Below are positions 21,826-46,695 of a stretch of 64,000 bases of DNA, in pieces (the stretch's first letter is position 1; each line of letters starts with the position of its first letter). The translations under genes were made by a program, and so were the position numbers. The stretch lies in contig CM075990.1 in NCBI GenBank assembly GCA_038087875.1, positions 372,001 to 436,000 on the forward strand, read 5' to 3'. The DNA is from Malacoraja senta. Its lineage: Eukaryota. The notes beneath the pieces were generated by a model. That model saw only the letters and a list, made by a program, of their open reading frames with translations, did no database searches and was not told the DNA's origin.

Positions 21826-22048
21826 TTTCTGAGTCAAAGAACATGGCTTGCCTGCTCTTCACCACTCAGAGTTCCTCTCTCACATCCACCCCTTTCGACT
21901 TGAGAAGGAGGAGTTTGAGTTCCGGTAACGTCACCATCCTGAATGGCAGCAAAAGATAACAGCTCCTCTGAAAAATACTTATTTAGCCCTGTTAGTTTGT
22001 CAAATATAACATTTATTGAGAATAACTGACCTGATGAAAGGGGCAAGA

Positions 22049-23042
22049 ATGGGAAGATGAGATGCAAACAAGAAAAGCGCCGCTGAACAACCCGAAAACA
22101 AAGAAAACACGACGGCTCACCTACAAAGGTACAAGATGGCGGAGCTAGCAACAACCTGCACCAGAAAGACGTAGGGCTACGTTTAGCCACTGGTTTGGAG
22201 GAGATACGGGACTTTTGCAAAGACACAAAAGAACAGCTAATCGATATTAAGGGCGAACTCACCAATGTTAATCGAAAAATAGCGGTGGCGGAGACACGGC
22301 TGGAAAGGGTGGAAGACCGTATGTTAAACATGGAGTAGGTGCTAGCTAAGATTATAAAAGTGATAAATCAGCAAGAAAACAAGCTACACGACCTAGAAGG
22401 GCGATCCAGACGGGAGAATATAATGTTCCAGAAGGAGCTGAGGGGTCATCTATGGTGGACTTTGTGGATAAGCTATTGCGGGACACGCTTGAACTTCCAC
22501 CCACCATGGAGTTTCACATTGAGAGAGCGCATCGATCGCTCGCCCCGAAACCCCCTGGAGACCCAGGAGATAAACCACAATCCATAATAATCAGTTTTCT
22601 CCGCTACAAAACGAAAGAGAAGATTTTGTGCAAGGCCTGGGGAAAGAAACAAGTGTTTTTGAACGGGAGACTAATATACTTCGATCAAGACTACGCTCCA
22701 GCAGTGCTACAGAAGCGAAAAGAATATTCTGAGGCAAAACGGGTGTTAAAGCAGAACAAGATCCGCTTTCAGATTCCGTTCCCCGCCAAGTTACAAGTAT
22801 TTTACAATGACGTGACACGACTGTACCAGACGGTGGATGAGGCGACCACTGACATGAGGAACAGAGGACTGCCCGTCAGAGTGACCACATCGAAAGAGAG
22901 CCTGGCTGAGCAACTGTCCCGCACTGCATGGGAGATGGTGGGAAGATCAAGACCGCAGGGGATGGGTGAGGAGCGAGAGAAGGACATCGTGGAGAGACTA
23001 CGGGTCTTCAGAAGACAGCCCTCATCTTCAGAAGAGTTTTAA
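22049..23042 (+). pseudogene. L1 ORF1 (coiled coil, RRM, CTD), disrupted
   Basis: LEGRSRRENI, IERAHRS and YFDQDY motifs in ORFs 22339-22587 and 22452-23042; start approximate. Confidence 0.85.
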
Positions 23043-23589: not shown

Positions 23590-23794
23590 TGTAAAGAGGC
23601 GTCATAACACACTGTGTCATTACTACTGTTTATTCATGATACACATACTTTACTGCCCTAGCTGTTCGTGGTCTGTCACCGGAACCAGAGAGAGCGAGCA
23701 CTGGGTGGGAAGGTTGTAATTATACTAGTGATGTGGGGAGTGGTTAGTAGTGGTGAGGTCACTGTGTTAAAGGTACATGCACATGTCATCTACA
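23590..23794 (-). repeat. 3' LTR of the Gypsy element
   Basis: Direct repeat of 28016-28220 with 2 mismatches by manual comparison. Confidence 0.95.
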
Positions 23795-23875
23795 TCCTTC
23801 CCCTTGGAAATAAAAAGCAATACAGTAGTGACAAGGCGACCACGTCTCATACGCTACGAGCAGGTGAGCAAACAG

Positions 23876-26800
23876 TTAAGCAAAATCACCATAACGGACA
23901 GGCGGCCTGACCACCCGCCCGGACCGGGTACGCAGCTCGCCATTTCCCCCCTCTGCAGGAGGAACTTGAGTAGGTGCAGGCGTGGGTGAGAGAACCGGGG
24001 AACCGGGAGGAGAAAGAGAAAGCGGAGACGGAGCAGGGGAAGCAGGAGCAGTAGCGGGAAGACGGGCAGGTGAGGGAGGACTGGCTGGTGGAGGGGCAGG
24101 CAATGTGGCAGACAGTGGGGGGGAAAAGGGGTCTGCAGGCGGCGGCGGTGGCTCGTTAACAAGCCGCAGATGTTGGCGGGACCGGCGGTAAATAGTACCG
24201 TCATGGTCGACTAGATAGGACCGCGGCGAACCAGCAGTACCGACGACGATGGCAAGCCTGGGATGACCGGAGGGGGACTGCATCCGGACGACTTGGCCAG
24301 GGAACAGAGGCGGGAGGGGACGGCAGGACTGGTCGTGGGAGCGCTTTTGGATTTCTTGCTTGAGGGCAATGGGCTCCTGGACAGCAGCGGGCTGGAGAAC
24401 AGAGGGAACGAGGGACCGCTGGGTCACCGGGATCGGAGGTCTCGTAGTGCGAGACATCAGCCGTTGTGCAGGGGAACCCAATGCAGTGTCGCGGCAAATG
24501 TTCCGAAGGTTGAGGAGGACCAGGTAAAAGTCAGAATGGGACAGCCTACAATGTTCCAGCAAGTCCTTAGCACTGCGGATAGCGCGCTCTGCCAAGCCGT
24601 TGCTTTGTGGGTACTCTGGGCTGCTGGTATAGTGTCGGAAGTTCCAGCCGGCAGCGAAAGGCCGAAATTCGGTACTCGAGAACTGGCTGCCGTTGTCCGT
24701 TGTCCGATTGAAGACTTGCCGGGGTGCCAAAGGTTCCGAAGTGTTGGTGCAGCTTCCCGATAACGGCCGAAGAGGTGAGGGAGTGCAGCCGGTCAACCTC
24801 GAACCAGCTGGAGTACGAGTCCACAAGAACCAGGAAGTGCTTGCCACGCCACTCAAAAATGTCAGCGGCGACGGTCATCCAGGGCAGCTCGGGGGCAGGC
24901 TGTTGCAGAAGCGGCTGCCGTTGCTGATGGGGAGCGAGGCTATTGCAGACAGAGCAAGCGGAGACCCTCTCCCGGATGTCTTGGGCCATGCTGGGCCAGT
25001 AGAACAAACTCGGGGCCTGGGATAGGGTGGCCTCGGCCCCAGGATGGCTGCGATGGGCGGTCTGAAAGTATTGGTCACGCAGGGCAGCAGGCACGATGAC
25101 CTTGTGTCCCTTCACGACCACGCCGTCGTGCAGCACGAGTTCGTCACGGACCAGGAAGTAGGGCACGACTCCAGGCGGCAAGGATGAACGACGGTCTGGC
25201 CAGCCCTGCCTGATGACGTCGGCAAGCTGCTGCAGGGCAGGATCCTTGGCAGTGTTGCTGACCAGGGACTGCATCTGCTGGGAAGGCACAATGTTGACAT
25301 TGAGCACCATCAGGTCAGACGATTCATATGGATGGCGATCGGTGGACGTTAGCAGTGCGCGGGACAGCGTGTCGGCCACAAACATGTCCTTGCCCTTGCG
25401 ATATACAATTTTGAACATAAAACGCTGGAGCTGCAACATCATGCGCTGCAAACGGGATGAGGCAACGTGGATCGGCTTGTTGAGGATAGAGACCAGCGGC
25501 TGATGGTCGGTCTCGATCGTGAAGCTGTTTCCCAGAATATAATCCTTGAACTTGGAGCAGGCAAACACGACAGCAAGCAGCTCCTTCTCTGTCTGAGCAT
25601 AGCACTGCTCGGCAGGGGTCATGGTGCTGGAAGCGTAGGAAACAGGCAGCTGCAGGCCATCGTGGAGCTGCAGGCAAGCAGCACCAAGACCGAACTTGGA
25701 GGCGTCGCAAGTAAGAACAATGGGACGCTGCAGATCGAAGAATTGGAGAGTGGGGGTACTGGCCTGCCTGGACTTCAGAATGTCGAAAGCTTTCTGGTGA
25801 TGCGGGAGCCAGGCCCAGGCAGTGTCCTTCTTGATCAACTCCCTCAGGGGCGCGCTCAGCTCGCTGAGGTCGGGGATGAACTTCCCCAGGTAAATAACCA
25901 TGCCCAGGAAACGCTGCAGGCTGGGCACGTCGGTGGGCGAAGACATACCGGAGACCGCGGTCGTCTTCTGCGGGTCAGGCTTCAGCTCCGATGCGGTAAA
26001 GACGTGGCCCACATAGGTGACCTGCGGGACGCGGAAACGGCACTTTTTTGGATTTAGTTTGAGGTTGATTTCACGGGCCCGGTCCAGGACTTGACGGAGG
26101 TGGAGATCGTGCTCAGCAACGTCCTTACCGTAGACCAGGATGTCGTCAACGATGATAGCACACGGCAGACCGGCGAACAGCTGCTCCATCGTCCGCTGGA
26201 AGACCTCGCTGGCAGAGTTGATCCCGAATGGCATGCGGAGGAATCGGAACCTGCCGAAGGGCGTGCTGAAGGTAGTCAGGTAGGAGGACCGCTCGTCCAG
26301 CGGTATCTGCCAGAAGGAGCTCTTGGCATTGAGAACCGAAAAGACAGTGGCCGGGCCAACCTTTGCAGCGACGTCCTCCACTGTTCGCATGAGGTAATGA
26401 GGGCGTCTGATGGCAAGGTTCAGGTCTTTGGGGTTGATGCAAATGCGAATTTCACTTTTGTCCTTTTTCGCAGCAACAACCATGGTGTAGACCCACCGGG
26501 TGGGTTCGCTCACCTCCTTTAGGATGCCCATGGTAACCATGTTGACCAGCGTTGATTCCACCTTGTCCTTCATGGCGAAGGAGACGCGGTGCGGTGGACG
26601 GACCGTAGGTTCAACACTGGGGTCGACAACGATCTTGTAGCTGCAGGGCAGCTTGCCCAGCTTGTCATCAAAATGGTCAGGGTATTCGCGCAGGGGGTCC
26701 ATAAGGGTCCGCACCTGGTGGATATCACGGTGGAAAGAGACCAAGCCGAGGTCCTGGCATGCCCGGGCACCCAACAGGGTGATGTTGTTTGTATCCAGTA

Positions 26801-27927
26801 GATAAAAAGTGAGGGGCCGAGAGGCACGCAGTACCTTGCAGTGCAGGGTAGCCCTCCCCACCGGAACGAGAACGCCTCCCCCGTAGGCATGCAACAGGGA
26901 GTGATCGGGAGTAACTTTCTCAACAGTCCTTATCTTCCTGAAGAGGCCTATTGACATTACATTGGTCACGGCCCCCGTGTCGAGTTTGGCGTTGAAGGTC
27001 GAACCGTTGACAGTAACGTGAACCGAAGGGTCCGTTATCAGTGCAGGTGCATCCAACACTGAAAATATGCTGGTCTCCCCCTGGGAGGAACTTGTATCAG
27101 ACAAAGGGAGTTCATCAGGCTGGAACTGTGAAGCAAACGCGCTAGGTTGTTTAACATTCGGCGTGGAGCAGGAACTGGCTTCCCACGAGGCTGCAGAGAA
27201 ATGGTTCAATTTCCTGCAAAAATTGCACGTTTTTCCCAGTGCAGGGCACACATTAGACTGATGGGAGGTAAAGTTGCAGTTGGGGCACCGCTGTGGGCTG
27301 CTACCCCCGGGTGCAGGGGACCCCTGTTGCCGTTGCGGGCCAGCGTTCCGCCGGCGGCCAGCAACACTGGTAAAGTTAATGTCATGATCAGCAGACGACA
27401 CCGCCGAGGCGACAGCCTCAGCCATGCGGGAGGCGTGCAGAGCATCGGCTAAAGACAGGTCATGCTTCCGCAGAAGTTCAGCCCTTAGTTTTTCATCTTG
27501 AAGACCATACACTAAAATGTCCCGGGTCAGTTGATCGGGGGTCAGCATGTCCAGGCTTCAACGCCTGGCCAGGTGATGCAACGCGGCGATATAGTTATCG
27601 ATTGACTCTCCAGAGATCTGATGCCGGGTGAACATTTTAAAACGCTCTAGAATGCAGTTAGTGGGGATGTCGCACATAGCCCGTAAACTTAGCCATAAGA
27701 CATACCGGGTCCTGAGCATCTTCACCTGCACCATAGACAAACGACTCAGCCCGTTCCAGGGCATCAGGACCAGCCAGGTTGAGAAGCAGAGAAGCCCGTG
27801 TAGCAGGGGTGGCAGCAGGATGGGCGATCGTGGCGTAGTGTTGAAAGTCACGTCTAAAGACACCCCACCGATGGGCAATGTCCGAGTCGAAGACAAGCAT
27901 GTCGGGTTTGCGGCAAGAAGTAGCCAT
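23876..27927 (-). pseudogene. Gypsy gag-pol, frameshifted
   Basis: CCHC-like knuckles, protease LDTGA, RT IIVDD (first catalytic Asp appears as N in VLNAKSS), RNase H TCDAS, integrase HHCC and D-D-E; a 7-bp duplication near 24690 shifts the integrase frame. Confidence 0.93.
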
Positions 27928-28015
27928 GGCATGGGAGGTAAAGAAAATGGGGAAACGGGTCCAAAGTAAAGAAAAAACGATAAACTGGAGGCGCAAAGGT
28001 ACGAAGCTGACACCA

Positions 28016-28220
28016 TGTAAAGAGGCGTCATAACACACTGTGTCTTTACTACTGTTTATTCATGATACACATACTTTACTGCCCTAGCTGTTCGTGGTCT
28101 GTCACCGGAACCAGAGAGAGCGAGCACTGGGTGGGAAGGTTGTAATTATACTAGTGATGTGGGGAGTGGTTAGTAGTGGTGAGGTCACTATGTTAAAGGT
28201 ACATGCACATGTCATCTACA
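28016..28220 (-). repeat. 5' LTR of the Gypsy element
   Basis: Direct repeat of 23590-23794, adjacent to the PBS. Confidence 0.95.
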
Positions 28221-31200
28221 CCTATTTCCTTCGCTCCATAGATGCTGCTGCACCCGCTGAGTTTCTCCAGCATTTTTGTGTACCTTCGATTTTCCAGCAT
28301 CTGCAGTTCCTTCTTAAACACATAGTATACTTATGCCCCTGTCCCACTTAGGAAACCTGAACGGAAACCTCTGGTGACCTTGCGCCCCACCCAAGGGTTC
28401 CATGAGTCGTCAGAGGTTTTGTTCACTCGCCTGGAAAGCCTCGACCGAAGAGTGAGCTGCATCTACCGACCAAAGATCCTACAGATCTTTGCTACCGACC
28501 GCACACACACACACACACACACAAACACATCGCTTAGGTGGGGCCCAGGGACAGCGCAGGAGCGCTGTCAGCGCAATGAAGAGGAAGGTAAACGGCTGCC
28601 ACAGAGTACGGTAAGTCCTTTAGAAAGCGCGGGAGGGGGGGAGAGAAGGGAAGAGAAGGGGAGAGAAGGGGGAGAGAAGGGTGAGTGAAGGGGGAGAGAA
28701 GGGGGAGAGAACGGGAGAGAAGGGGGGAGAAGGGGAGAGAAAGGGGGAGATGGGGGGAGAAGGAGAGGGAAGGGGGGAGAAGGAGTGGAGACAGTTTTAA
28801 GAAGTTTAATAAAGTTAGCGGCATTTTCCCTTCAGGCGGATCTTCTAGGTCCTGAAAACTCCAATGAGCCAATCAAAATTGCCGGTCAGCGAAGGAGATT
28901 GCCTTCGACTACCTATAACTAAACAGCAACCCCACTCCACTGGCTTCGACCAAACGGCAACCTAGTTTTAGTCAAGGCCGGCTTTGATTTTACTTCGGAG
29001 TCACGTGAGTGACTACGTGAAGAACCCGTCCAGCACGCATGCGCGACATTAGCGTTCACGCAGTGCAACAGCGACGACCGGGAGTACAGGCGCTCCCGCT
29101 ACACGTCGGTGAAAACTAAACAGCGGACCATCAGGTAAGTCTTACACTGAGGTCGTAATCAGCAAGCTGTGCTCTGCTCTCTATTCCAGAGGAACTGGGA
29201 ACATGAGCAGCACGGCAAAGGAAGAAAACCGCCCCCCGTTCGACTCCAACAGAACGGGAGTGTTCCATCAGTGGGGGGCGAGAGGCGGCACCTGGACCGT
29301 ATATGCGGCGGTCCACCCTCATCGAGTCCGAGCCGAGCCCAGTACCGCTAGCGCAGCCTGATGAGCGGCAGCGGGCTGGAGGAAACGTTTAAAAAAAAAC
29401 AACAAAAAACCGGCCGGTTATGTCTGACTCCGATGAGGAGGGTCCGCCTTAGAGCGGCAGAGCTAGCCGCCTGAGCCGAATGGAAAGGCTCATGGAGCAA
29501 CTGCTCCAGCGAGACTTGCTTCAGGAGCTAGAGCAGTCTCGCCAGGGGGATCAGGCACTCCCACAGCAGTGCTCTACAATGCACTGGCCATCGCTTTCCC
29601 CTCAAAGCAGGGCAGCGTTGGCGACCAGGGCTGGGCTGGTCAGGAACAGGGGTCATTGGCTGAAGATGTCGGGAGTACGCTTGGGGTACAGGATCAGGAA
29701 GAGCTGCTGGGTGTGGAGATTCGCTACGTGGTTTCACCACGAGCAGGGCGGCCATTGGAGCCAAAACTGGCGGCCAGCATCAACCACCTGTCCCTCAAAC
29801 CCCTACAAGACAGGTACTTAATGAGGCACTAGAGCTGGAAAACTGCAGTTCGCTCAATGTACCGGCTGTTAACAGCCAAATCTGGGGGGGGGGGGACAGA
29901 GTATCCGGAACCAGGAGCTAAAATCCTCAAGCTCCTGACGACAGGGATAATAGCCTATGCTCGTTCCGTGGATGGGGTGGATATGACCACAAACCAGCAA
30001 GACACTCTGGCTCTGCTGTGCTACACCCAATATGAGATAAATAACCTCCGCAAGGAGAGAATAAGACCTGCCCTCAATCCCAGGTTTGCAGGACTGTGTA
30101 AAACACCGGCCTCAGAGCCGCAGATCCTGTTATTTGGAAGGACAAGTGAAAGACCTGGAGGAAGAGTCGAAAGCATTTGGCCTCATGAGGGCAGGCCTCG
30201 GAACGAGCAGACCCACACAAAAAACAGACGGCAGTACCCCACCGCGTCCACCAGTCAAGGTCAAATTTATGTAACTGGTGAAAGCTCGGGGTCCGCATAC
30301 TATCCACGAAAGCCTTTTTAGGCCAGGGCCCAGAGCGGACTCCATGGAAAATGCGCCACCCCTAATCAGCAGTACATCAGCAGTACATCCAGCAGTATAA
30401 CGACGGATGAACAAACGGAAGAAAGGAACACTACCATAACTATGGAGGTAGGTGGGTCTGGTTCCTACCAGCATGTAAATGGGGAACTGTACTAACAGGA
30501 GGTGTCTCATGAATGATAGTTATATACTTAACAGTATTCGGGGATACAAAATAGAGTTCATTCAAGAAAACATGCCACCAGTTCAGCACGTACCCCAAAG
30601 GGTCTTTACCCTCTCAGTCAAAGAGAACTAGAGGCTCAAGCAGAACTGGTGAGGTTACTTACAAAGGGTGTCATTGAGAAATCCAGACATGATCCTTTCG
30701 AATTTGTCTCAAATATATTTACCAAAAGCAAAAAAGATGGTGGATGTCGCATCATCATTGACTTAACCTCACTAAATACCTTTGTTAAGTATGTACATTT
30801 CAAAATGGAAACATTTGTAACTGCTAAACAACTGATTTCCAAAGGATACTTTATGGCAAGCATTGATTTAAAAGATGCCTACTATTCAGTACCCATTCAC
30901 AAGGGTCATCGCAGATACCTGAAAATTTACCTGGATGGGGCAACTATGGCAGTATAAAGTGTTGCCTAATGGGTTGACATCAGCCTTAGACTATTTACCA
31001 AGATATTAAAACCAGCCTTGGCAACATTAACGAAACAAAGACATATTGTCATGGCGTATCTTGATGATATCCTAATAGTTGGCAAAACCATGGAGTTGGC
31101 TAAATCAGCTGTATTAGCTACCAAACAATTGTTTGAAACCCTGGGTTTGTCATACATCCAGATAAATCTAAGTTGACGCCATTCACAACTATGGACTATC

Positions 31201-32436
31201 TGGGATTCACAATTAACTCAATCTACATGTCTGTAACGTTGCCAAAAGGTAAAGCAGCAGAATTGGCACAGATGTGCAACAATTTAATGATAAGCAATCG
31301 ACCAACCATCCGACAAGTGGCAAGAGTAATTGACAAAATGGTAGCAGCATTTTCAGCTACACAATTTGGACTCCTGCACTATCAGCACCTACAAAGGGCA
31401 AAAGTACAGGCGTTGAAACGACATGCAGGTCACTTTAACAGATCCATGAAACTACCCATTGAAGCAATATCAGAGTTACAATGGTGGATATAACACATTT
31501 GGCATAGTTCCAGCCCTATCATCATCAATAACCCAACGTTAACTATACAAACAGATGCCAGTGCTCAAGGCTGGGGAGCAACTAATACCATATCCAGCAC
31601 AGGTGGTAGATGGACTAACCTAGACTCGTCTTTACTACAAACACTGGGCATTAATTATTTGGAAATGTTGGGTGCGTTTTATGGTTTTAAAGCATATTCT
31701 AGGAATATGCACAACTTGCATGTTCATTTACAAATTGATAATATCACGGTGGTGGCCTATATTAACCATATGACCGGAATAAAATCGATATCATGTGACA
31801 ATTGGGTCAACACAATCTGGTAATGGTGGGTCGATAGACATATTTGGCTATCAGCAACTTACCTACCAGGTAAGCTAAATACAGTGCCAGGTCACGCAAA
31901 TTCAATGATAAACACCGAATGGATGTTAAATCCTAGAGCTTTTGCTAAAATTACAAACCAATATGGCACACCAGATATCGATCTCTTTGCATCCAGACTA
32001 AAACACCACGTACCAATGTATGTCCCTTGGGAACCACACCCTGAGGCAGCAGCGATAGATGCATTCGCGCTGAACTGGGGGACTGATTTCTTCTATGCTT
32101 TTTCCCCTTCTGCCTTAATCTGTAGGGTACTACGCAAAATACAGATGGACTCTGCTTCAGGTATTTTGATAGTACCAACTGGCCTACACAGCCATGGTTC
32201 CCAGTGGTCCTCGACATGGTCATCGAAACTCCTATGACCTTTCCCAGTAGCCCAGATCTATTGACGCACCCTGTATCAGGCATAAGTCATCCATGCCATG
32301 GCAAAATTAACCTACTGGGTTGCAGATTATCAAAAGACCACTGCTGGGACTGGGATTGTCTGACAGGACCATCAACATGATGACACCGTATGTCCACCAG
32401 GAAACAATACCTATCGAGCATCAGGAAGTGGGAAAG

Positions 32437-33287
32437 CAGTGGCCAAACCGTTGCTTTGCGGGTACTCCGGGCTGCTGGTGAAATGGCGGAAGTTCCATCT
32501 GGAAGCGAACGCTTTAAACTCGGAGCTCGTGAACTGGCTGCCATTGTCCGACTGCAGGCTTGCCGGGGGGCCAAAAGTGCCAAAATGAGGGTACAACTTA
32601 TCGATGACGGCCGAAGAGGTTATGGAATGCAGCCGGTCGACCACAAACCAGCTGGAGTAGGAGTGAACGAGAACCAGGAAATGTTTGCCCCGCCACTCGA
32701 AAATGTCAGCGGCAAGCGCCATCCAGGGCAGTTCGGGCGCGGGCTGCCGCAGAAGCGGCTGACGCTGCTGGTGGGGGGCGAGGCTGTTGCAGGTGGAACA
32801 CGAGGAGACCCTCTCCCGGATGTATTTGGCCATATCCGGCCAATAGAACTGGCTCCTGGCGAGAGACACGGTGGCTTCGGCCCCAGGATGACCGCGGTGA
32901 GCGACTTGAAAATAGTGGTCGTGCAGCGCCGCGGGCACGACCACCTTGTGACCCTTCACCACCACGCCGTCGTGCAGTACGAGCTCGTCCCGGACCAGGA
33001 AGTAGGGCACGCGACCAGCCGGCAGTGCCGAACGACGGTCAGGCCAATTGGAGGCGTGGGTTCGAATCCCACTTCTGACACCATGTAAAGAGTGTATAAC
33101 GAGGCATCGTTACTTTACTATCTTTATTCATACTGGAGCATTACACATTGCACTAGCTGTACGTGGTCTGTCACAGGAACTAGAGAGCGATCTGTGGGTG
33201 GGGAGGTTGTAGATATACTTGTGATATGGGGAGTGGTTAGTAGGTATGAGGTCACTATGTTAAAGGCACATGCATATCTCATCTACA
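32437..33287 (-). mobile_element. Aberrant Gypsy fragment: single LTR, tRNA-Leu segment and integrase piece
   Basis: LTR 33084-33287 related to 28016-28220; ORF 32411-33010 is an integrase HHCC/core piece; splits the DIRS YR frame KWE|RYC with no 5-bp TSD. Confidence 0.9.
33044..33083 (+). other. 3' portion of mature tRNA-Leu(CAA-like) including CCA (extended primer-binding site, not a tRNA gene)
   Basis: TGGAGGCGTGGGTTCGAATCCCACTTCTGACACCA matches vertebrate tRNA-Leu variable arm, T arm, acceptor strand and CCA. Confidence 0.88.
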
Positions 33288-34826
33288 GATACTGCTCGAC
33301 TACTGGGACAACGTACTCATCTGCAACCATAACCAATGTACTGGAGTTCCTGGGGGGCCTTCACCATAATGAAGGATTGAGCTACAGCGCCATCAATACT
33401 GCCAGACGTGCGCTGTCAGCCTACTTAAAACAGGTGCCAGGACAACAGGCCATAGGGTCTCACCCGCTGGTGATCAAACTCATGAGGAGTATCGTCAACT
33501 CCAACCCTCTTAGACCTAGGTATACACAAATCTGGGATGTCAGTGTGGTCCTGACATACCTAAGGGGATGGTCCCCAGCCAGGTCTCTCACCCTGGAAAA
33601 GCTAACCCTGAAAACGGTCATGCTGATGCCACTAGTCTCAGCACAAAGAGTCCAGTCCCTCCACTTACTGCGACTGGACAACATGGTTATAACACCAGAC
33701 CGGGTCTCATTCACCATTCAGGAGCTGCTAAAGCAGAGCAAGCCAGGAACTTGAGTCCTAGTTATGGATTTCCGGGCATACCCACCTGACCTACGGTTGT
33801 GTGTCATGACTCACTTATTCGCTTACATCAACACAACAAAAGATTCTCGAGGGAGAAAGGAAAAAAAAAAAATAATGATAATAATAAATAAATAAATAAA
33901 AAAGCCTTATGGGTCAGCCACAAGAAACCTCATGGTTGGGTGTCGAGCCAAACCATCTCGAGATGGCTCAAGCAGGTACTGGGAGCTGCTGGAGTAGATA
34001 CTGATGTATATACATCTCACTCCACCAGGGCAGCATCCACATCGGCGGCTAAAAGAATGAACATGGAGAAAACGTTCCAAACGTTCTACCACAAGCCGCT
34101 AGCAGAACCTGTGTTATTTGCAGAAAGAGTTTTTAAAATCTGCAAATATATATAATTTAAGCCCGGGGGAGCATTTTGTCTTTTGTTATTGTTTAATAGA
34201 TACCATTATTGTTTACAAACAGATTATGGTTGATTACGATAACATACTTCCTCCCTTGAATGACTTCGGCAGCGAGTGAAGTATGAACTGTTACACGGTT
34301 TGAAATCACAGAGCTTTAAAATCTTCACGTAGTCACTCACGTGACTCCGAAGTAAAATAGTAAGATTAAACGAGAACTTACCAGTTTGAAGTTTGATCTG
34401 TATTTTATGAGGAGTTACGATGAGGGATTACGTGCCCTCCGCTCCCACCCTCAAATATATAGATCAACAGGTATCTTAGTTCTCCTTTTCTTTACTATGT
34501 TTATTTCAATTATTGTGTTTCCTGTGATTCCACACCGCTGCTTTGAAGAATGTCGCGCATGCGTGCTGGACGGGTTCTTCACGTAATCCCTCATCGTAAC
34601 TCCTCATAAAATACAGATCAAACTTCAAACTGGTAAGTTCTCGTTTAATCTTACTATTTTGTTGAAATAATCGAAGGAACATAGAAGAAGCCTCGACCAC
34701 GCGGAAACCACTTTCGACCATTAGGGAGAGTGACCAAAACCTCCGGGAACCTCATGGAAACATTGGGTGGGGCGCAAGGTCACCAGAGGTTTCCGTTCAG
34801 GTTTCCTAAGTGGGACAGGGGCATAA

Positions 34827-36733
34827 CAGGAAACCCATCTAAATGACAAAGAACACGAAAAACTTAAAGGAATGGGTTTGACTAACCTCTTTTTCTCCTC
34901 ATATATATCGGGAAGTAGGAGAGGAGTCGCTACTCTCATCTCAAGCAAGTTACATTTTGAGAAAGTATTTGAAATGAGTGATAAGGAGGGTAGATTTATT
35001 TTAGAAAAGGGGAATATAGATGGGAATCAAGTTACGTTGCTGAATGTATATGCACCTCCTGGAAGTGATTTTAATTTCTTCCAGAGAATTATTAATATCA
35101 TGATAATGAAACGGAATGCTTTATTATTTGTGGGGGAGACCTAAATATACATTTACAACCAGAGCTAGACTCGTCCAGTAAAAAAACTCATGATACAAAG
35201 TTTACATAAGAAAGTCAAAACTCTTTTTAAAGAGGTCGGTTTAATTGATATATGGCGGGACCTTTTCCTTAATAGAAGGGATTACACCCATTACTCGGCC
35301 CCACACTCTCTGTACACAAGAATAGACTATTTTATAATATTTGGAAAGGATAAAGATGAAATACACACCTGTGGAATTGGAACAATAGACTTAAGTGACC
35401 ATGCACGTATTTACCTATCTATTGATTTAGACCTACGTCCAAAAAATGCTACATGGAAACTGAACTCGAGCCTACTCAATGATCTTAACTTTAAGGAACA
35501 AATTAAAAAGGAGATAAGTCTTTATTTAGAACTCAATGATAACGGAGAGGTCTCTCCCCCTATTTTGTGGGATGATTTGAAGGCTGTTCTAAGAGGAAAA
35601 ATTATAGCAATATCTTCATATAAGAAAAAAATAAGGAATAAAACATTTGATGATTTGCAAAATAAGCTGAAGGAACTAGAAAGGAAACACAAATTGACGT
35701 TAGCGTGGAATACATTGGAGGAAATTAGGAATACTAGGAATGAAATCAACAATCTGGCTGCATAAGAAATCAAGAAAAAGTTAATGTTCCTTAAACAGAG
35801 GCACTATGAAAGTGGTTCTAAATCTATGAGAGTACTGGTGTGGTAACTGAAAAAAAAGATGGCTGAAAATACAGTTCACAGAATCAGAGACCCAAGAACA
35901 AAAATATTGAAAAGTAAATTAAGTGACATTCAGGAAGCCTTTGAAGTATTCTACAGAACTCTGTATTGTGAAGTTCCAGGAGGTAGCCAAACTCAAGTAG
36001 ACACCTTTCTGAATTCCATAGATTTGCCCACCTTAAATGAAGATCAAAACAAGACAATGACTGGAGACATAACAGAGGGTGAATTAAAAATTGCAATTAG
36101 TAGGCTCAAGCTGAGCAAATCACCAGGTTATACGGCAGAATGGTATAAGGAATTTAAAGATGACTTAACACCTCTTATACTCCGTACATTAAACTGGGTT
36201 TAAAAAAAGGCACAAACACCACCGAGCTGGAGGGAGGCAATTATCTCTGCTATACCAACAGGAGGTAAAGATAAAACAGAGTGTGGGTCATTTAGACCAA
36301 TATCAGTTCTTAATGTAGATTATAAATTATTCACTTCTATCATGGCCAAACGGTTAGAACAATTCTTGCCTAAATTAATACCAGACAGGTTTTATTCGGC
36401 AATGTCAAACACAGGACAATATACGACGGACACTAGATATTGTGGACTACAATCAAAAAAATAAAATGGAAGCAATAGTGACAAGTGTGGATGCTGAAAA
36501 GGCATTCGACTCTGTGAACTGGAATTTTCTCTATCGAGTTCTACATAGATTTGGCCTGCATCACACTATTATTAAAACCATACAGGCACTATATAATAAG
36601 CCCACTGCTAGAATTAAAGTTAACCGGTATTTATCAAAGAGTTTTTCTCTACAAAGGGGTTCAAGACAGGGATGTGCGTGGTCACCATTACTCTTTGCAT
36701 TATATTTGGAACCACTAGCTCAATATATAAGAC
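34827..36733 (+). pseudogene. L1 ORF2 middle part (APE remainder, RT N-half)
   Basis: QETHL, NVYAP, RIDY, LSDH, VDAEKAFD, GSRQGCAWSPLLF. Confidence 0.92.
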
Positions 36734-39700
36734 AAAATAGTAAGATTAAACGAGAACTTACCAGTTTGAAGTTTGATCTGTATTTTATGAGGAGTTACGA
36801 TGAGGGATTACGTGAAGAACCCGCTCAGTGCGCAGGCGCGGCATACTTCCAAGCAGCGGTGTGGAATCACAGATAGACACAAGTATTTGAAGTAAACATA
36901 GTAAAGAAAAGGAGACATCAATTTATTAGTTTGATCCATATAATGAGGGTGGGAGCGGAGGGCACGTAATCCCTCATCGTAACTCCTCATAAAATACAGA
37001 TCAAACTTCAAACTGGTAAGTTCTCGTTTAATCTTACTATTTTACTTCGGAGTCACGTGAGTGACTACGTGAAGATTTCAAAGCTCTGTGATTTCAAACC
37101 GTGTAACAGTTTTATTTCACTCACTGCCGAAAGTTCTTGAGGGAGGAAGTGTTATCGTAATCAACCAATGAATCTGTTTCTCAAGAAACAAAAAAGGTAT
37201 TTATTAACAATAACAAAATTAAAGTGCTCCCCCGGGCTTAAATTAAATATTTGCAGCTTGTAATATTTTCTCTGCAAATAAATCAGGTTTCATCAACGGC
37301 TTATTATAAAAGTTCTGAATGTCGTTTCCCTCGACCATCCTGCTGTATTCAGAATATGGTCAACCGGTACGTCCATTCTGTCGGCCGTTGATGCTGCCCT
37401 AGTGGAATAAGATTTAAATGTATTAGTATCTATTCCGGCAGCCTTCAGTACCTGTTTGAGCCATCTTGAAATGGTTTGGCTCGTTACCCGGCCATGAGGT
37501 TACTTGTGGCTGACCCATAAGGCTTTTTCACTCCCTCTGATATTGTGGGTTGTGTCTATGTAATGTTGTAGATGGGTCACGACACACAACCGTGGCTCTT
37601 GTGGGTAGGCCCAGAATACCACCAGTGGATTAGCTGTTCCTGGCCTGCTTTGCTTCACCAGACCCTGTATGATGAATGTGATCTGATCTGGGGTGGTCAC
37701 CATGTTGTCCAGCCTTAACTTGTGTAGTGACTGGACCCTCTGAGCGGATACGAGTGCCATCAACATGAGCGTCTTTAGTGTAGATTGCTCGAGGCTGAGG
37801 GATCTGGCTGGTGGCCATTCCCTGAGGTATGTCAGGACCACACTGATATACCAAATATGGGTATACCTGGGTTTAGGGCTTTATATCATAAATGCCCTTC
37901 ATCAGTTTTACCACCAGTGGATGGGATCCCATTGCCTGTTGTCCTGCTGGTTTGAGATAAGCAGAAAGAGCACTTCGCGCTGTGTTGATGGCACTGTAAC
38001 TGATCCCTTCATCATGGTGTAGATGGGCCAGGAATTCCAGTACGTTGGTGGCTGTGGCTGTTGCATACGTTGTCCCTGTTTCCTGGCAGTACTTCTCCCA
38101 TTTTCTTATGCTGATTCAGTACTGCCTCTTGGTGGATGTTCAAAGGGATGCCGACATGGTGGTGATGGTTCGTTCGGACAATCCCTGTTCCAGATAAGGT
38201 CTATTCAAAACCTGCAACCCAGGAGTTTAATTTTCTCATGGCATGGGTGGCTTATGCCTGATACTGGGTGAGTTAATAATCCTGGATCACTGGGAAAGAC
38301 CATTGGTGACTCAACCACCATGTCATGTAGAACCGGGAACCATGGCTGTGTAGGCCAGTCGGGCACCATCAAAATTCCAGAAGCAGAGTCCATCTGTATT
38401 TTGCGAAGTACCCGACTGATGAGGCAGAAGGGAGGGAAAGCATAGAAGAAGACATTTCCCCAATCCAGCGTGATGGCATGTATCGCTGCTGCCTCTGGAT
38501 CTGGTTCCCAAGCGACATATATAGGTAACTGGTGATTTCGTCTTGATGCAAATACATCGATATCTGGCATTCCATACTGCTTAATAACTTTAGCAAATAC
38601 TTTAGGGTTTAACATCCATTCGATGTTATCATTGAATTTGCATGAGCTGGTGTCTGCCACTGTGTTTAGCTTACCTGGTAGATAAGTAGCTGATAGCCAA
38701 ATATGTCTTTCGACACACCATAGCCAAATCACATTGACCAATTTGTCGCATGATAATGATTTTATGCCGCCGATATGGTTAATATAAGCCACCACCGTAG
38801 TATTATCAATCTGTACCCGAACATGCAAGTGCTGCATATTAGATACATATGCTTTTAACCCATAAAAGGCGCCGAACATCTCTAGATAGTTAATGCCCAG
38901 TGTCAGTAGTAATGATGACTCTAGGTTAGTCCATCTACCACCTGTGCTGGATATGGAGTTAGTTGCTCCCCAGCCTTGAGCACTGGCATCTGTCTGAAGA
39001 ACTAAAGTAAGGTTGGTGATGATGATAGAGCTGAAACTATGCCAAACATTTTCTGCCCACCACTGTAGCTGATATTGCTTCAGTGGGTAATTACATGACA
39101 CGAACATCGTGACCTGTATGTCGTTTTAGTGCCTGTACCTTTGCTGTTTGTAAATTTTGATAGTGCAAAGGTCCGCATTGTGTAGCTGGAAATGCTGCTA
39201 CCATTTTCCCAATCACTCTTGGGACTTGTCGAATAGTTGGTCGTTTGTTGACCATTAAATAGTTGCATGATTGTGCTAATGCAACCATTTAAAAAAAAAA
39301 AATCTTTTATTTATTTATTTATTTAAAAATAAAAAAATATATATTTATTTATTTATTTTTATTTTCCTTTTGGCAAGGTAACAGTCATATGGACTGAGTT
39401 AATTGTGAAGCCCAGGTAGTCCATAATAGTGGATGGCTTCAACTTAGATTTATCTGGATGTAGGACGAACCCCAGAGTTCCGAGGAGCTATTTTGTAGCT
39501 GATACTGCTGCCACAGCCAATTCCATCGTTTTCCCTACTATCTGAATATCATCCAGGTATGCCATGACAATATGTGTTTGTTTCTTAGTCTTGCCATGGC
39601 TATTTTCAATATTTTGATGAATAATCTTGGGGCTGAAGTTAGCCCATTGGGCAATGCTTTGTACTGCCTCAGCTGCCCCAACCAGATAAATTGTAGGTAT

Positions 39701-41517
39701 CTGCAATGATCCTTGTGTATGGGTATTAGATAGTAAGCATCTTTCAGATCAATGCTTGCCATGAAGTATCCTTTGGAAATCAGTTGTTTGGCAGTAACAA
39801 CTGTCTCCATTTTGAAATGTATATACTCAACAAACTTATTTAGTGATGTTAAGTCAATGATGATGCGACATCCACCATCTTTTTTGGTTTTATTTGATAC
39901 AAATTCCAAAGGTTCATGTTTGGTCTTTTGGATGACCTCTCCACTAATGCTGTTGAGTATATACTTGTCACACGTGACAGTAACCCATGCTTCTTTGAAC
40001 CAGTGTAATCTCCCCTCTGTTAGTAAAGCACCCTTATTCTCTATATGCTGGCAGGAACCAGACCCACCTACCTCCATGTTCATTGGTGTTTCTTTTGTTT
40101 CCTGATGTTTTTGTAGGTTTTGCTTGTCTGACGTGCTGGCGATGTTGGGGGGTGGCGCATTTTCCATGGGGTCCGCTGTGGGCCCTGATCTAAAAAAGAT
40201 CTTTGGGGATAAAATGCGGTCCCCGAGCTTTCACCAGTCCCATATTGAGGACGTCGACTGGTGGATGCCATGGGGTGCTGCCGCTTGGGTATTGTAGCTC
40301 TTGGTTTGCTCGTCCCAGGGCCTGCCCTCATGAGGCCGAAAGATGTCGCTGCTTCCTCCATGTCCCTCAGTTTTGTTGTTGAGGTCTTTCCCAAATAACA
40401 GAGCGTCCGTCTCTGCAGCTGGGGCTCTGCACAACCCAGCAAATTTGGGATTGAGGGCAGGTCTTATGTTTCCCCGCCGGAGATTGTGTATCTCAAATTG
40501 TGTGTTGCACATCAGTGCCAGCACATCCTGCTGGCACGTATCCATCTCCGTACCTTGCACAGAACGAGCAAAGGCTGTAATGGCCGACGTCAGGAGCCTT
40601 AGGATCCGCTGTAGCTTGATTTCATGGTTACGCATGTTTGACCCCACGTGACCCCAGATCTGGCTGTTCACAGTCTTCACTCTGAGGCCTCACAGTTCTC
40701 TGGTGCTGTGTAAAATTCAAGCGCCTCAAGAAGTACCTTCTCCTGCAAGGGCTTATTTGACAGATGATTGATGCTGGCCGCCATTTTTGGTTCCAGCGGT
40801 CTTCCAGCACGTGGGGTTGTTACATAGCGGTCCACGACACCCAGCAGCTCTTCCTGCTCCTGCACCCCTTGCATACTGCCGAATTCTTCTGCCAGCCCCT
40901 GTTCCAGACCAGCCCAACCCTGGTCACCCATGCTAGCCTCCAGTAATGAGGGAGCAGAGGGCAGTGCACAAGACACTGTGGAGGAGGTGCCTGACCTACC
41001 TCCGCGAGAACGCTCCTTCTGCGTAGCTCGCTGGAGCATCTGCTCCAAGAGCTGTTGTAAGCTCTGGCGGCTGTCTCTCCTCCGTGTAGGTGGAGACATG
41101 TCCCCATCCGACAAATCAGACATTACCGGCCGGTTGCTCTCATGGCTTTCCTCCCTGTCCGCTGTGCAGGCATTAGCGGGACTGGGCTCGGCTCGGTCTC
41201 GGGGATAGCGGAGCGCTCATGAGCGGTCCTGCTGCCTGTTGCTGCCCCCCTGAGATTAAACGCTCCTCTGGTGGAGTTGAGCTGGGGGCAGTTCTGTTGG
41301 AGAGTCTTCTCGTGAGTGTACTTATTTGCTAAGAACACCCACACTCTCTTTCTCTGTTAGACTAGTTGAATATACTCACCCAACGGTCCGTTTTTTTCAA
41401 AATGCAGCCGGAGCGCCTTCCTCCAGCTGCCGCCGCTGTTGCACTGCTGGCGTAATGCCGCGCCTGCGCACTGAGCGGGTTCTTCACGTAGTCACTCACG
41501 TGACTCCGAAGTAAAAT
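36734..41517 (-). mobile_element. DIRS1-type retrotransposon, copy 2
   Basis: Same termini and ICR as copy 1 in reverse orientation; ORFs 39538-40167 (RT), 38205-39107 (RNase H, MT-like YAFPPF), 37500-37841 (YR), 40231-41123 (gag-like). Confidence 0.95.
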
Positions 41518-43442: not shown

Positions 43443-46400
43443 GCGGGGAGATCTGCAAAGGCTACTGGGGAGACTTTAAACTAGAATGGTTGGGGGGAGG
43501 GACTCAAATAGAGAATGCTATTAGACAGTGTGTGAGGCAGGAGGCAGAGAAGGAAAGCACTCAGACCCAACATGTAGGGGGGAAAGAAGAAAACAATAAT
43601 AAACAGAGAATAAGAGGTGGTGGGGTTCTTAAATGGGTGAGCAGAGAAACAGAGGGGTGCAAAATGCGGGCGGAAGCAATAGGTAGCAAGGTGAAAAGTA
43701 AAAGTGGCAGGCAGACAAATCCAGGGCAAAAATCAAAAAGAGCCACGTTCCAACATAATTGTATAAGGGGTAAGAGCGTTGTAAAAACAAGCCTGAAGGC
43801 TTTGTGTCTCAATGCAAGGAGCATTCGTAATAAGGTCGATGAGTTGAACGTGCAGATAGCAATTAATGATTATGATATAGTTGGGATCACGGAGACATGG
43901 CTCCAGGGTGACCAAGGCTGGGAGCTGAACATCCAGGGATATTCAATATTCAGGATAGAGAGAAAGGAAAAGGAGGTGGGGTAGCGTTGCTGGTTAGAGA
44001 GGAGATTAACGCAGTGGAAAGGAAGGACATTAGCTTGGAGGATGTGGAATCGGTATAGGTAGAGCTACGAAATACTAAGGGGCAGAAAACGCTGGTGGGT
44101 GTTGTGTACAGGCCACCTAGCAGTAGTAGTGAAGTTGGGGATGGCATCAAACAGGAAATTAGAAATGCGTGCAACAAAGGCAAAACAGTTATAATGGGTG
44201 ACTTCAATCTACATATAGATTGGGTGAATCAAATTGGCAGGGGTGCTGAGGAAGAGGATTTCTTGGAATGTATGAGGGATAGTTATCTAAACCAACATGT
44301 AGAGGAACCAACGAGAGAGCAGGCTATTCTAGACTGGGTATTGAGTAATGAGGAAGGGTTAGTTAGCAGACTTGTTGTGCGTGCCCCCTTGGGCAAGAGT
44401 GACCATAATATGGTTGAGTTCTTCATTAGGATGGAGAGTGACATTGTTAATTCAGAAACAACGGTTCTGAACTTAAAGAAAGGTAACTTTGAGGATATGA
44501 GACGTGAATTGGCCAAGATTGACTGGCAATTAGTTCTAAAAGGGTTGACGGTGGATATGCAATGGAAGGCATTTAAAGACTGCATGGATGAACTACATAA
44601 AATGTTCATCCCAGTTTGGCAAAAGAATAAATCAGGGAAGGTAGTGCATCCGTGGATAACAAGGGAAATCAGGGATAGTATCAAAGCAAAAGATGTTGCG
44701 TACAAATTAGCCAGAAAAAGCAGCATACCAGAGGACTGGGAGAAATTCAGAGACCAGCAGAGGAGGACAAAGGGCTTAATTAGGAAAGGGAAAATAGATT
44801 ATGAAAGGAAACTGGCAGGGAACATAAAAACTGACTGCAAAAGTTTTTATAGATATGTGAAGAGAAAGAGATTAGTTAAAACAAATGTAGGTCCCTTGCA
44901 GTCAGAAACAGGTGAATTGATCATGGGGAACAAGGATATGGCGGACCAATTGAATAACTACTTTGGTTCCGTCTTCACTAAGGAAGACATAAATAATCTG
45001 CTGGAAATAGCAGGGGGCCGCGGGTCAAAGGAGATGGAGGAACTGAGTGAATTCCAGGTTAGTCGGGAAGAGGTGTTGGGTAAATTGAATGGATTAAAGG
45101 CTGATAAATCACCAGGGCCAGATAGGCTGCATCCCAGAGTACTTAAGGAAGTAGCTCCAGAAATAGTGGATGCATTAGTGATAATTTTTCAAAATTCTTT
45201 AGATTCTGGAGTAGTTCCTGAGGATTGGAGGGTAGCAAACGTAACCCCACTTTTTAAGAAGGGAGGGAGAGAGAAAACGGGGAATTACAGACCAGTTAGT
45301 CTAACATCGGTAGTGGGGAAACTGCTAGAGTCAGTTATTAAAGATGGGATAGCACCACATTTTGAAAATGGTGAAATCATTGGACAAAGTCAGCATGGAT
45401 TTACGAAAGGTAAATCGTGTCTGACGAATCTTATAGAATTTTTCGAGGATGTAACTAGTAGAGTGGATAGGGGAGAACCAGTGGATGTGTTGTATCTGGA
45501 CTTTCAGAAGGCTTTCGACAAGGTACCACATAAGAGATTAGGATACAAGCTTAAATCACACGGTATTGGGGGTTCAGTATTGATGTGGATAGAGAACTGG
45601 CTGGCAAACAGGAAGCAAAGAGTAGGAGTAAACGGGTCCTTTTCACAATGGCAGGCAGTGACTAGTGGGGTACCGCAAGGCTCAGTGCTGGGACCCCAGC
45701 TATTTACAATTTATATTAATGATCTGGACGAGGGAATTGAAAGCAACATCTCCAAGTTTGCGGATGACACTAAGCTGGGGGGCAGTGTTAGCTGTGAGGA
45801 GGATGCTAGGAGACTGCAAGGTGACTTGGATAGGCTGGGGGAGTGGGCAAATGTTTGGCAGATGCAGTATAATGTGGATAAATGTGAGGTTATCCACTTT
45901 GGTGGCAAAAACGGGAAGGCAGACTATTATCTAAATGGTGGCCGATTAGGAAATGGGGAGGTGCAGCGAGACCTGGGTGTCATGGTACACCAGTCATTGA
46001 AAGTAGGCATGCAGGTGCAGCAGGCAGTGAAGAAAGCGAATGGTATGTTGGCCTTCATAGCAAGAGGATTTGAGTATAGGAGCAGGGAGGTTCTACTGCA
46101 GTTGTACAGGGTCTTGGTGAGACCACACCTGGAGTATTGCGTACAGTTTTGGTCTCCAAATCTGAGGAAGGACATTATAGCCATAGAGGGAGTGCAGAGA
46201 AGGTTCACCAGACTGATTCCTGGGATGTCAGGACTTTCATATGAAGAAAGACTGGATAGACTTGGCTTATACTCGCTAGAATTTAGGAGATTGAGAGGGG
46301 ATCTTATAGAAACATACAAAATTCTTATGGGGTTGGACAGGCTAGATGCAGGAAGATTGTTCCCGATGTTGGGGAAGTCCAGGACAAGGGGTCACAGCTT

Positions 46401-46695
46401 AAGGATAAGGGGGAAATCCTTTAAGACCGAGATGAGGAAAAACTTTTTCACACAGAGAGTGGTGAATCTCTGGAACTCTCTGCCACAGAGGGTAGTTGAC
46501 GCCAGTTCATTGGCTATATTTAAGAGGGAGTTAGATGTGGCCCTTGTGGCTAAAGGGATCAGGGGGTATGGAGAGAAGGCAGGTGTGGGATACTGAGTTG
46601 GATGATCAGCCATGATCATATTGAATGGCGGTGCAGGCTCGAAGGGCCGAATGGCCTACTCCTGCACCTATTTTCTATGTATCTATGTATCTATG
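43443..46695 (+). mobile_element. Young CR1 LINE: end of ORF1, ORF2 and 3' UTR
   Basis: APE start LCLNARSIRNK...ITETW, one frameshift near 43955, then a long open frame; (CTATGTAT)n tail. Confidence 0.97.
44095..46596 (+). CDS. CR1 ORF2 endonuclease/reverse transcriptase (833-aa open segment; N-terminus frameshifted)
   Basis: MGDFN, KSDH, YRPVSLTS, LDFQKAFD, GVPQGSVLGP, KFADDTK. Confidence 0.9.
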   Translation: MGVVYRPPSSSSEVGDGIKQEIRNACNKGKTVIMGDFNLHIDWVNQIGRGAEEEDFLECMRDSYLNQHVEEPTREQAILDWVLSNEEGLVSRLVVRAPLGKSDHNMVEFFIRMESDIVNSETTVLNLKKGNFEDMRRELAKIDWQLVLKGLTVDMQWKAFKDCMDELHKMFIPVWQKNKSGKVVHPWITREIRDSIKAKDVAYKLARKSSIPEDWEKFRDQQRRTKGLIRKGKIDYERKLAGNIKTDCKSFYRYVKRKRLVKTNVGPLQSETGELIMGNKDMADQLNNYFGSVFTKEDINNLLEIAGGRGSKEMEELSEFQVSREEVLGKLNGLKADKSPGPDRLHPRVLKEVAPEIVDALVIIFQNSLDSGVVPEDWRVANVTPLFKKGGREKTGNYRPVSLTSVVGKLLESVIKDGIAPHFENGEIIGQSQHGFTKGKSCLTNLIEFFEDVTSRVDRGEPVDVLYLDFQKAFDKVPHKRLGYKLKSHGIGGSVLMWIENWLANRKQRVGVNGSFSQWQAVTSGVPQGSVLGPQLFTIYINDLDEGIESNISKFADDTKLGGSVSCEEDARRLQGDLDRLGEWANVWQMQYNVDKCEVIHFGGKNGKADYYLNGGRLGNGEVQRDLGVMVHQSLKVGMQVQQAVKKANGMLAFIARGFEYRSREVLLQLYRVLVRPHLEYCVQFWSPNLRKDIIAIEGVQRRFTRLIPGMSGLSYEERLDRLGLYSLEFRRLRGDLIETYKILMGLDRLDAGRLFPMLGKSRTRGHSLRIRGKSFKTEMRKNFFTQRVVNLWNSLPQRVVDASSLAIFKRELDVALVAKGIRGYGEKAGVGY

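What the first reader, a model, noticed from the sequence alone, without database searches (positions are those of the whole stretch)
32437..33287. Fossil of aberrant reverse transcription: LTR, 35-40 nt of tRNA-Leu, then a jump into integrase
Seen: a single LTR (33084-33287) adjoins CCAATTGGAGGCGTGGGTTCGAATCCCACTTCTGACACCA, the 3' part of a mature CCA-bearing tRNA-Leu covering the T arm and variable arm. It is fused at a CCA microhomology to pol sequence equivalent to about 25200 of the complete element, skipping gag, PR, RT and RH. The intact relative has only about 9 nt of matching PBS. The other end is ragged with no TSD. Known: plus-strand strong-stop synthesis normally halts at m1A58 after about 18 nt of primer. 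Inference: RT read through the primer tRNA, mis-transferred to an internal site, and the product integrated with one normal end.
Basis: partly seen in the sequence, partly recalled or inferred. Interest (0 to 1): 0.72.

Follow-up and report, generated by a model that had tools for sequence, protein, structure and literature searches.

The report
Retrotransposon copy that overcopied its primer
This is a dead fragment of a gypsy-type jumping gene whose copying enzyme most likely ran 40 letters into its tRNA primer instead of stopping at about 18 and then jumped to the integrase gene, an accident already described in HIV-1 and seen here also in other genomes.

Summary
The anatomy is real. One 204-nt LTR is followed by 40 nt complementary to the 3' end of CCA-bearing tRNA-Leu, joined through 3 shared bases to 600 nt of Ty3/gypsy integrase, 2.8 kb downstream in the neighbouring element. 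The far end has a 5-nt filler and at most 1 nt of target duplication. Two corrections: the neighbour is a different, broken subfamily, and behind its 9-nt PBS lies a decayed tRNA-like extension. A metagenome scan gave 22 independent loci with LTR plus 34-60 nt of tRNA-Leu complement. Within one LTR family each copy ends elsewhere and joins gag, the end of pol, the LTR end or host DNA; one has two LTRs and a 5-bp target duplication. Ends avoid the T-arm and gather before G37. The mechanism is published for HIV-1 (44 proviruses, PMC12657518). I found no description of it as a recurrent germline class in retrotransposons.

The parts
33084..33287 (-). Single LTR of a Ty3/gypsy element, 204 nt, normal TG...CA ends; its outer end is a clean integrase-type joint to host DNA
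   Evidence: 87% to neighbour's 5' LTR
33066..33083 (-). Canonical 18-nt primer-binding site, complementary to the 3' end of mature tRNA-Leu including CCA
   Evidence: the same 18-mer stands behind an LTR-like end in 3 of 3 viral-collection loci and stops there
33044..33065 (-). 22-nt over-extension: complement of tRNA-Leu from A58 through the T-arm into the variable arm; the last 3 nt (33044-33046) are shared with pol
   Evidence: 39 of 40 identical to L038/L043 over the whole 40 nt; microhomology 3 nt
32442..33043 (-). Integrase fragment (zinc-binding H2C2 domain and part of the rve core), open frame of 200 codons, equivalent to 25199-24591 of the neighbour
   Evidence: 79.7% nt; 106 identical, 59 synonymous, 34 non-synonymous of 199 codons
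32437..32441 (.). 5-nt filler at the ragged end; with the next host base it is the inverted copy of a 6-mer 15-20 nt further on in the neighbour's integrase (about 1.5% by chance), as in templated end joining
29001..34662 (+). Host element that received the insertion (DIRS-like by recall of its layout; RT hit in its paralog). Paralog at 36732-41503 (-) gives the empty site: no loss, 0-1 nt duplicated
23590..28220 (-). Neighbouring near-full-length Ty3/gypsy element of a sister subfamily: two 205-nt LTRs 99% identical, 5-bp target duplication, gag-PR-RT-RH-IN with frame breaks in gag and integrase
27980..28015 (-). Neighbour's leader: 9-nt PBS plus a decayed tRNA-Leu-like extension of about the same reach (to nt 38)

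Best explanation
A defective Ty3/gypsy (Mag-like) cDNA made by delayed, misdirected second-strand transfer and fixed in the germline. (1) Minus-strand synthesis was primed by mature tRNA-Leu (inferred from the CCA-ended PBS). (2) Plus-strand synthesis from the PPT copied the LTR and, instead of stopping before A58, went on 19-22 nt into the variable arm of the attached primer (shown as sequence; templating inferred). (3) The over-long end could not pair at the PBS and re-primed through 3 shared bases on minus-strand DNA at the start of integrase, dropping 2.8 kb (junction shown; timing inferred). (4) Integrase joined the LTR end normally. The other end was unfinished or unusable and was joined by end-joining repair with a short filler and at most 1 nt of target duplication (inferred, weakest step). 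The copy is dead and has no function. It records one reverse-transcription accident of a kind that recurs in tRNA-Leu-primed elements.
For: The junction falls exactly where tRNA likeness ends, although the 3-nt word occurs 51 times in the 2,791-nt skipped span. Nt 19-35 are unchanged while third positions of integrase differ at 75 of 199 from the neighbour; no change in 17 nt has probability 0.03 at 19% drift per lineage. 44 metagenome loci reduce to 22 independent ones; three LTR families have 6, 6 and 3 copies, each ending at a different tRNA position and joining a different partner. L014 is the complete predicted product: 5-bp duplication, LTR, 46 nt tRNA, end of pol, PPT, LTR, duplication. 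L038 jumps from nt 57 into the gag zinc knuckle and runs on through pol. Of 23 ends none lies at nt 24-33, 8 lie at 46-50, and 3 at nt 49, just before G37; L008 and L022 share exactly 49 nt and then part. HIV-1 proviruses with tRNA inserts of 7-54 nt at deletion junctions are published (PMC12657518, passages).
Against: The neighbour's leader carries a decayed tRNA-like extension of nearly the same reach, and L029 (copia, frame open for at least 700 codons) and L004 (gypsy, UTR and gag start) carry long tRNA stretches in front of gag, so long leaders can be inherited. At only 6.5% drift an inherited stretch would stay unchanged with probability 0.32. The metagenome pattern demanded at least 24 tRNA bases, so it gives no frequency and could not show a misread at A58. 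The model needs a second accident for the ragged end. No second copy of this subfamily was found.
Confidence: 0.7

Rival explanations
1. Read-through-adapted lineage. This gypsy lineage normally carries a long (about 38-40 nt) tRNA-complementary leader, like an enlarged lentiviral primer over-extension sequence. Its reverse transcriptase often passes A58 and refreshes the leader, and this copy is a mis-transfer from the usual, late plus-strand stop. The junction still arises by the reader's mechanism, but the long tRNA stretch is a family trait.
For: The neighbour's relic extension ends at nt 38, close to this copy's nt 37-40. L004 and L029 have long tRNA stretches in front of gag. Lentiviruses have a short conserved over-extension sequence behind the PBS (PMC13191261, passages).
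Against: The neighbour's extension has decayed although its LTRs are 99% identical, so it was not being refreshed. In three metagenome families no two copies share an end and continuation. A review states that Ty1 and Ty3 inherit their PBS and not the primer's sequence (PMC7472051, passage).
Confidence: 0.18
2. Inherited long leader, then ordinary deletions. The parent had a long tRNA-like leader from an old capture; a minus-strand jump or a later DNA deletion removed gag to RNase H, and a second deletion removed the 3' part.
For: Decayed extension in the neighbour; 3-nt microhomology is also typical of DNA repair deletions.
Against: Two coincidences are needed: one breakpoint inside a stretch of at most about 40 nt out of 2.8 kb (1 of 51 possible 3-nt sites), the other inside the 5-bp target duplication without loss of host DNA. 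The stretch is unmutated.
Confidence: 0.07
3. The tRNA piece came by another route (template switch of RT onto a second, co-packaged tRNA or 3' tRNA fragment during minus-strand synthesis, or repair patching with tRNA cDNA), or the join is an assembly chimera.
For: Tandem tRNA copies exist (L015; Culex cqgypsy_1, PMC3286476). Read support for this junction was not obtained.
Against: Register and orientation are exactly those of the primer at the PBS. The host element is in register on both sides of the insert, which a chimera would not give.
Confidence: 0.05

Closest known systems
Delayed (aberrant) second-strand transfer in defective HIV-1 proviruses, Hardy et al. 2025, PMC12657518 (passages of Results, Fig. 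4e/5b legends and Discussion seen)
   Same: LTR, PBS, further primer-tRNA complement (7-54 nt beyond the PBS there, 19-22 nt here), then a jump to a downstream site with internal deletion; explained by missed m1A58/m5U54 stops.
   Different: There: somatic proviruses, tRNA-Lys3, 44 sequences. Here: a germline-fixed Ty3/gypsy retrotransposon with tRNA-Leu, and a second abnormal end without LTR or target duplication.
Plus-strand strong-stop at m1A58 and later stops at positions 55, 54 and 37 (PMC8599865 and PMC13191261, passages seen)
   Same: The normal 18-nt stop and the known minor read-through products; loss of m1A58 lets RT continue.
   Different: PMC8599865 expects products that pass position 54 not to integrate; here and in 22 other loci they are integrated. 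This copy ends in the variable arm, not at a stop named in those passages.
Culex cqgypsy_1 (Osvaldo lineage) with a tRNA dimer at the PBS flanked by a 26-nt duplication of the LTR end, PMC3286476 (passages seen)
   Same: Mature CCA-bearing tRNA built in behind a gypsy 5' LTR; the return to the LTR end matches L021, L025, L032, L012 and L015.
   Different: Whole tRNAs in a single element, read by the authors as an insertion after reverse transcription, not as primer read-through; no internal deletion.
Mag lineage of Ty3/gypsy (PMC3286476, Table 1 and Mag section passages)
   Same: tRNA-Leu or tRNA-Ser PBS, LTRs of about 120-300 bp, mostly 5-bp target duplication, 4.5-5 kb, no env; double zinc-knuckle gag (recalled as Mag-type).
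   Different: Placement by RT phylogeny was not done; ordinary members are listed with an ordinary PBS.
Strong-stop DNA model for the origin of tRNA-derived SINEs (Ohshima and Okada 1993; recalled, not read)
   Same: tRNA 3' part with CCA fused head-to-tail to the antisense LTR end.
   Different: Only 40 nt of tRNA, no A box, so no Pol III promoter; no sign of amplification was obtainable.

Membership tests
Ty3/gypsy LTR retrotransposon (Metaviridae) | pol order PR-RT-RH-IN, RT closest to Ty3, no env | tested here: met
   Neighbour pol: RVT_1, RT_RNaseH, Integrase_H2C2 in this order; best solved match Ty3 Gag-Pol E 1.9e-68; the fragment is 80% identical to it.
Ty3/gypsy LTR retrotransposon (Metaviridae) | Two TG...CA LTRs, PBS, PPT and target-site duplication | tested here: not met
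   Met by the neighbour. The finding itself has one LTR, no PPT or 3' LTR and 0-1 nt duplication: it is a defective derivative.
Mag lineage | Leu/Ser PBS, short LTR, 5-bp duplication | tested here: met
   against the table in PMC3286476
Mag lineage | RT groups with reference Mag elements in a tree | not tested
   No named reference RT set was fetched.
Delayed second-strand-transfer products (as in HIV-1) | Primer-tRNA complement continues beyond nt 18 in register with the PBS | tested here: met
   40 nt, 39 of 40 identical to L038/L043; CAA anticodon in the longer copy L004.
Delayed second-strand-transfer products (as in HIV-1) | The tRNA stretch defines the deletion junction to a downstream internal site | tested here: met
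   3-nt shared join to pol, 2,791 nt skipped.
Delayed second-strand-transfer products (as in HIV-1) | The parent element lacks the extension (normal PBS of 18 nt or less) | tested here: inconclusive
   No copy of the same subfamily found; the sister subfamily has 9 nt plus a decayed extension.
Delayed second-strand-transfer products (as in HIV-1) | Both LTRs present, normal integration | tested here: not met
   Only one LTR here; met by the parallel locus L014.
tRNA gene or tRNA-derived SINE | Full cloverleaf with A and B boxes | tested here: not met
   ARAGORN 0 genes in the window and in 44 of 44 loci; no Rfam tRNA match.

The most novel reading that the evidence does not exclude
Primer read-through is a routine by-product of tRNA-Leu-primed LTR retrotransposons of both gypsy and copia type. 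The integrated ends map the RT-blocking modifications of the germline primer tRNA (skipped A58, stops before G37 and position 26), so genomes hold a readable fossil record of tRNA modification. Some products rejoin the leader and go on replicating with a captured tRNA extension (L004, L029, and the decayed relic in the neighbouring element), against the textbook view that Ty-type elements do not inherit primer sequence. This is also a direct route to tRNA-LTR chimeras of the kind once proposed as SINE ancestors.
Probability: 0.35. Interest if true: 0.62.

Novelty: new member of a known kind. Interest (0 to 1): 0.36.

Why it matters
The single locus is a dead copy and matters little. As a class, such copies show that over-extended plus strands, which are expected to be dead ends, do reach the germline. 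If the ends track m1G37 and m2,2G26, a genome-wide census would read out primer-tRNA modification and RT behaviour in germ cells of animals where no experiment is possible. It would also test whether gypsy and copia elements can inherit primer sequence. For annotation, very long PBS calls behind solo LTRs should be read as reverse-transcription accidents and not as tRNA genes or SINEs.

Tried and rejected
No whole genome is held for this window, so PBS length across the subfamily could not be measured. Read support for the two junctions was not obtained (one search gave no result); one search lists 19 runs, 2 with more than half of the words, none laid, so they are not used as evidence. Searches for relatives of pol or integrase found none in viral contigs or prokaryote genomes. 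LTR motifs gave 0 hits in prokaryote genomes and 4 hits in viral contigs that match only 17-21 nt and are chance. Rfam gave only sub-threshold chance matches. Rejected: insertion of the element into a tRNA gene (no 5' half of a tRNA beyond the insert, CCA present, host is a retroelement). Rejected: SINE origin of the tRNA piece (no A box; register fixed to the LTR end). Rows dropped before counts: 44 loci to 23 junction groups; L035 merged with L045 (99.5% over 2.97 kb). End points were entered by hand: L004 set to 60 because nt 58-60 close the anticodon stem (57 by comparison with other copies); L017 and L038 set to 57; L029 left at 34, a lower bound, since by recall it follows another tRNA-Leu isoacceptor up to the base before G37. 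No duplication was seen next to the junction in L046, L047, L039 and L040; the exact one in L009 lies in A-rich DNA and may be chance. Paper searches for a description in retrotransposons: (0 papers); only PMC12657518 and PMC3286476 bear on it. Older subscription papers on tRNA inserts in retroviral DNA and Ty1 cDNA ends (recalled: Colicelli and Goff 1986, Pulsinelli and Temin 1991, Mules et al. 1998) are not in the library and were not read; supplements were not opened.

Full report
The observation. On the minus strand, 33287-33084 is a 204-nt LTR with TG...CA ends, 87% identical over ungapped columns to the 5' LTR of an element at 23590-28220. Directly behind it, 33083-33044 is complementary to the last 40 nt of a CCA-ended tRNA. 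On the plus strand the T-arm hairpin folds. No tRNA gene is called in the window and Rfam does not score so short a piece. The Leu(CAA) label comes from a longer natural copy of the same stretch (L004) with a CAA anticodon loop, from 39 of 40 identity to L038/L043, and from recall. Then 602 nt match the neighbour's pol at 79.7% and carry Integrase_H2C2 and rve. The join shares 3 nt with pol and skips 2,791 nt.

The far end. Homology ends at 32442. A 5-nt filler follows; with the next base it is the inverted copy of a 6-mer 15-20 nt further on in the neighbour's integrase (about 1.5% by chance). The insert sits in another retroelement whose paralog at 36732-41503 shows the empty site: no host base is lost and 0-1 nt is duplicated. 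The neighbour has a 5-bp duplication. The far joint therefore lies inside the footprint of the integrase cut. That fits one-ended integration with repair better than a later deletion, but this step is inference.

The neighbour. It is a Ty3/gypsy element (RT, RNase H, integrase in that order; best solved match Ty3 Gag-Pol). Its LTRs are 99% identical, yet its frames break in gag and integrase, so it is not intact. It is a sister subfamily: 75 of 199 third codon positions differ from the fragment. Its features fit the Mag lineage as tabulated in PMC3286476 (passages); no tree was made. Its PBS is 9 nt, but a decayed continuation aligns with nt 19-38 of the tRNA stretch. An end-to-end score as high was found at 2 of 310 start points in the element body and 0 of 1500 window points. 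In a looser local test 8 of 20000 shuffles, 3 of 103 body 40-mers and 8 of 3188 window 40-mers reached it. It cuts both ways: tRNA extensions occur in this lineage, but an inherited one decays, while the fragment's nt 19-35 are unchanged (probability 0.03 at 19% drift, 0.32 at 6.5%).

Parallels. An 18-nt PBS scan of viral contigs gave 3 loci, all stopping at nt 18. A scan of metagenome contigs for LTR end plus 24 tRNA bases gave 44 loci, 23 junction groups, 22 after merging two alleles. None is a tRNA gene (0 of 44). Three LTR families hold 6, 6 and 3 of them, and within a family each copy ends at a different tRNA position and joins something else. L014 is 5-bp duplication, LTR, 46 nt of tRNA, the end of pol, PPT, LTR, duplication. 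L038 jumps at nt 57 into the gag zinc knuckle and continues through a pol related to the window's. L021, L025, L032, L012, L045 and L015 return to the last bases of the LTR; the first five are followed by a 4-of-5 or better match to the upstream flank, and L015 by a second tRNA copy. L009 and L017 show the flank 5-mer 1 and 10 nt after the tRNA; L046, L047, L039 and L040 show none next to the junction. L004 has tRNA, a 20-nt UTR and the gag start; L029 is a copia element whose frame is open for at least 700 codons behind such a stretch.

End points. Of 23 ends (34-60 nt), none lies at nt 24-33 (0.0007 under a uniform model), 8 lie at 46-50, none at 51-56, and 3 at nt 49 (0.023; values entered by hand). 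L008 and L022 are identical for exactly 49 nt. Nt 49 is the base before G37 and nt 60 (L004) the base before position 26. m1G37 and m2,2G26 are widespread tRNA modifications (PMC10275265, passages); that they block RT and occur in tRNA-Leu is recalled. The scan was selected for long matches, so it gives no frequency and cannot show misreads at A58. The hosts of these contigs were not determined.

Mechanism. Shown: the parts, the junction, the lack of target duplication, and the recurrence. Inferred: plus-strand synthesis passed A58 and T54, stopped or was trimmed in the variable arm, re-primed on minus-strand DNA at the start of integrase through 3 bases, and the product was joined by integrase at the LTR end and by repair at the other. 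I give 0.70 to this happening at the birth of this copy and 0.18 to a parent that already carried a long, refreshed leader (same junction mechanism). I give 0.07 to an inherited leader with plain deletions, which needs one breakpoint at 1 of 51 equal sites and another inside the target duplication, and 0.05 to other routes or an assembly chimera.

What is known. The 18-nt stop at m1A58, the second stop at 54 and later minor stops are established for retroviruses (PMC8599865, PMC13191261; passages). PMC12657518 (passages) describes exactly this product in HIV-1: deferred second-strand transfer with tRNA-Lys3 inserts of 7-54 nt at deletion junctions in 44 proviruses. PMC3286476 (passages) reports one mosquito gypsy element with mature tRNAs at the PBS between duplicated LTR ends. 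A review states that Ty1 and Ty3 inherit their PBS rather than the primer's sequence (PMC7472051, passage). Searches showed no account of this as a recurrent class in retrotransposons; older subscription papers are not in the library.

Verdict. The finding works like, and in its defining junction is, a delayed second-strand-transfer product. It fails membership only in lacking the second LTR, and the parent's PBS length is untested. The locus is a new member of a known kind, interest 0.36. The wider reading, that such fossils chart primer-tRNA modification and that captured extensions can be inherited, is not excluded (probability 0.35, interest 0.62).

Noticed in passing
window 27980-28015 (-): The young neighbouring gypsy element (LTRs 99% identical) has only a 9-nt PBS followed by a decayed tRNA-Leu-like extension; too many changes to have arisen after insertion, so its parent replicated with this leader.
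   Followed up: partly
window 29001-34662 (+) and 36732-41503 (-): Two related retroelement copies (65-82% identical, DIRS-like by recall) face each other; their ends share near-identical 81-168-nt repeats in both orientations (34286-34662, 36732-37111). Further pieces at about 61116-61180 and 62941-63973.
   Followed up: partly
L029, from about 60 nt behind the LTR end (1196-2962, - strand, and beyond): A Ty1/copia element with a gag-pol frame open for at least 700 codons behind a long tRNA-Leu-like stretch, apparently of another isoacceptor (recalled): read-through capture is not limited to gypsy.
   Followed up: partly
L015:415-540: LTR end, 49 nt of tRNA complement, a few LTR-end bases, then a second 42-nt tRNA copy: looks like two rounds of read-through and jump-back.
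   Followed up: no
L032:2945-3080: An LTR-like unit of only about 55 nt, then tRNA complement, then its last 33 nt repeated exactly and a 4-5-nt target duplication: a possible miniature element.
   Followed up: no
L004:3860-4830: The gypsy gag is cut off by a LINE-type endonuclease frame (Exo_endo_phos_2).
   Followed up: no
window, many places (for example 7781-7997, 11116-11293, 49032-49209, 44059-46596): Abundant tRNA-derived SINE-like repeats and a LINE with endonuclease and RT; the repeat landscape recalls cartilaginous fishes (recalled, not tested).
   Followed up: no
window 21834-23042: Coding-like stretch next to the gypsy element that resembles an L1-type ORF1 by recall; no Pfam hit in the one frame tested.
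   Followed up: no
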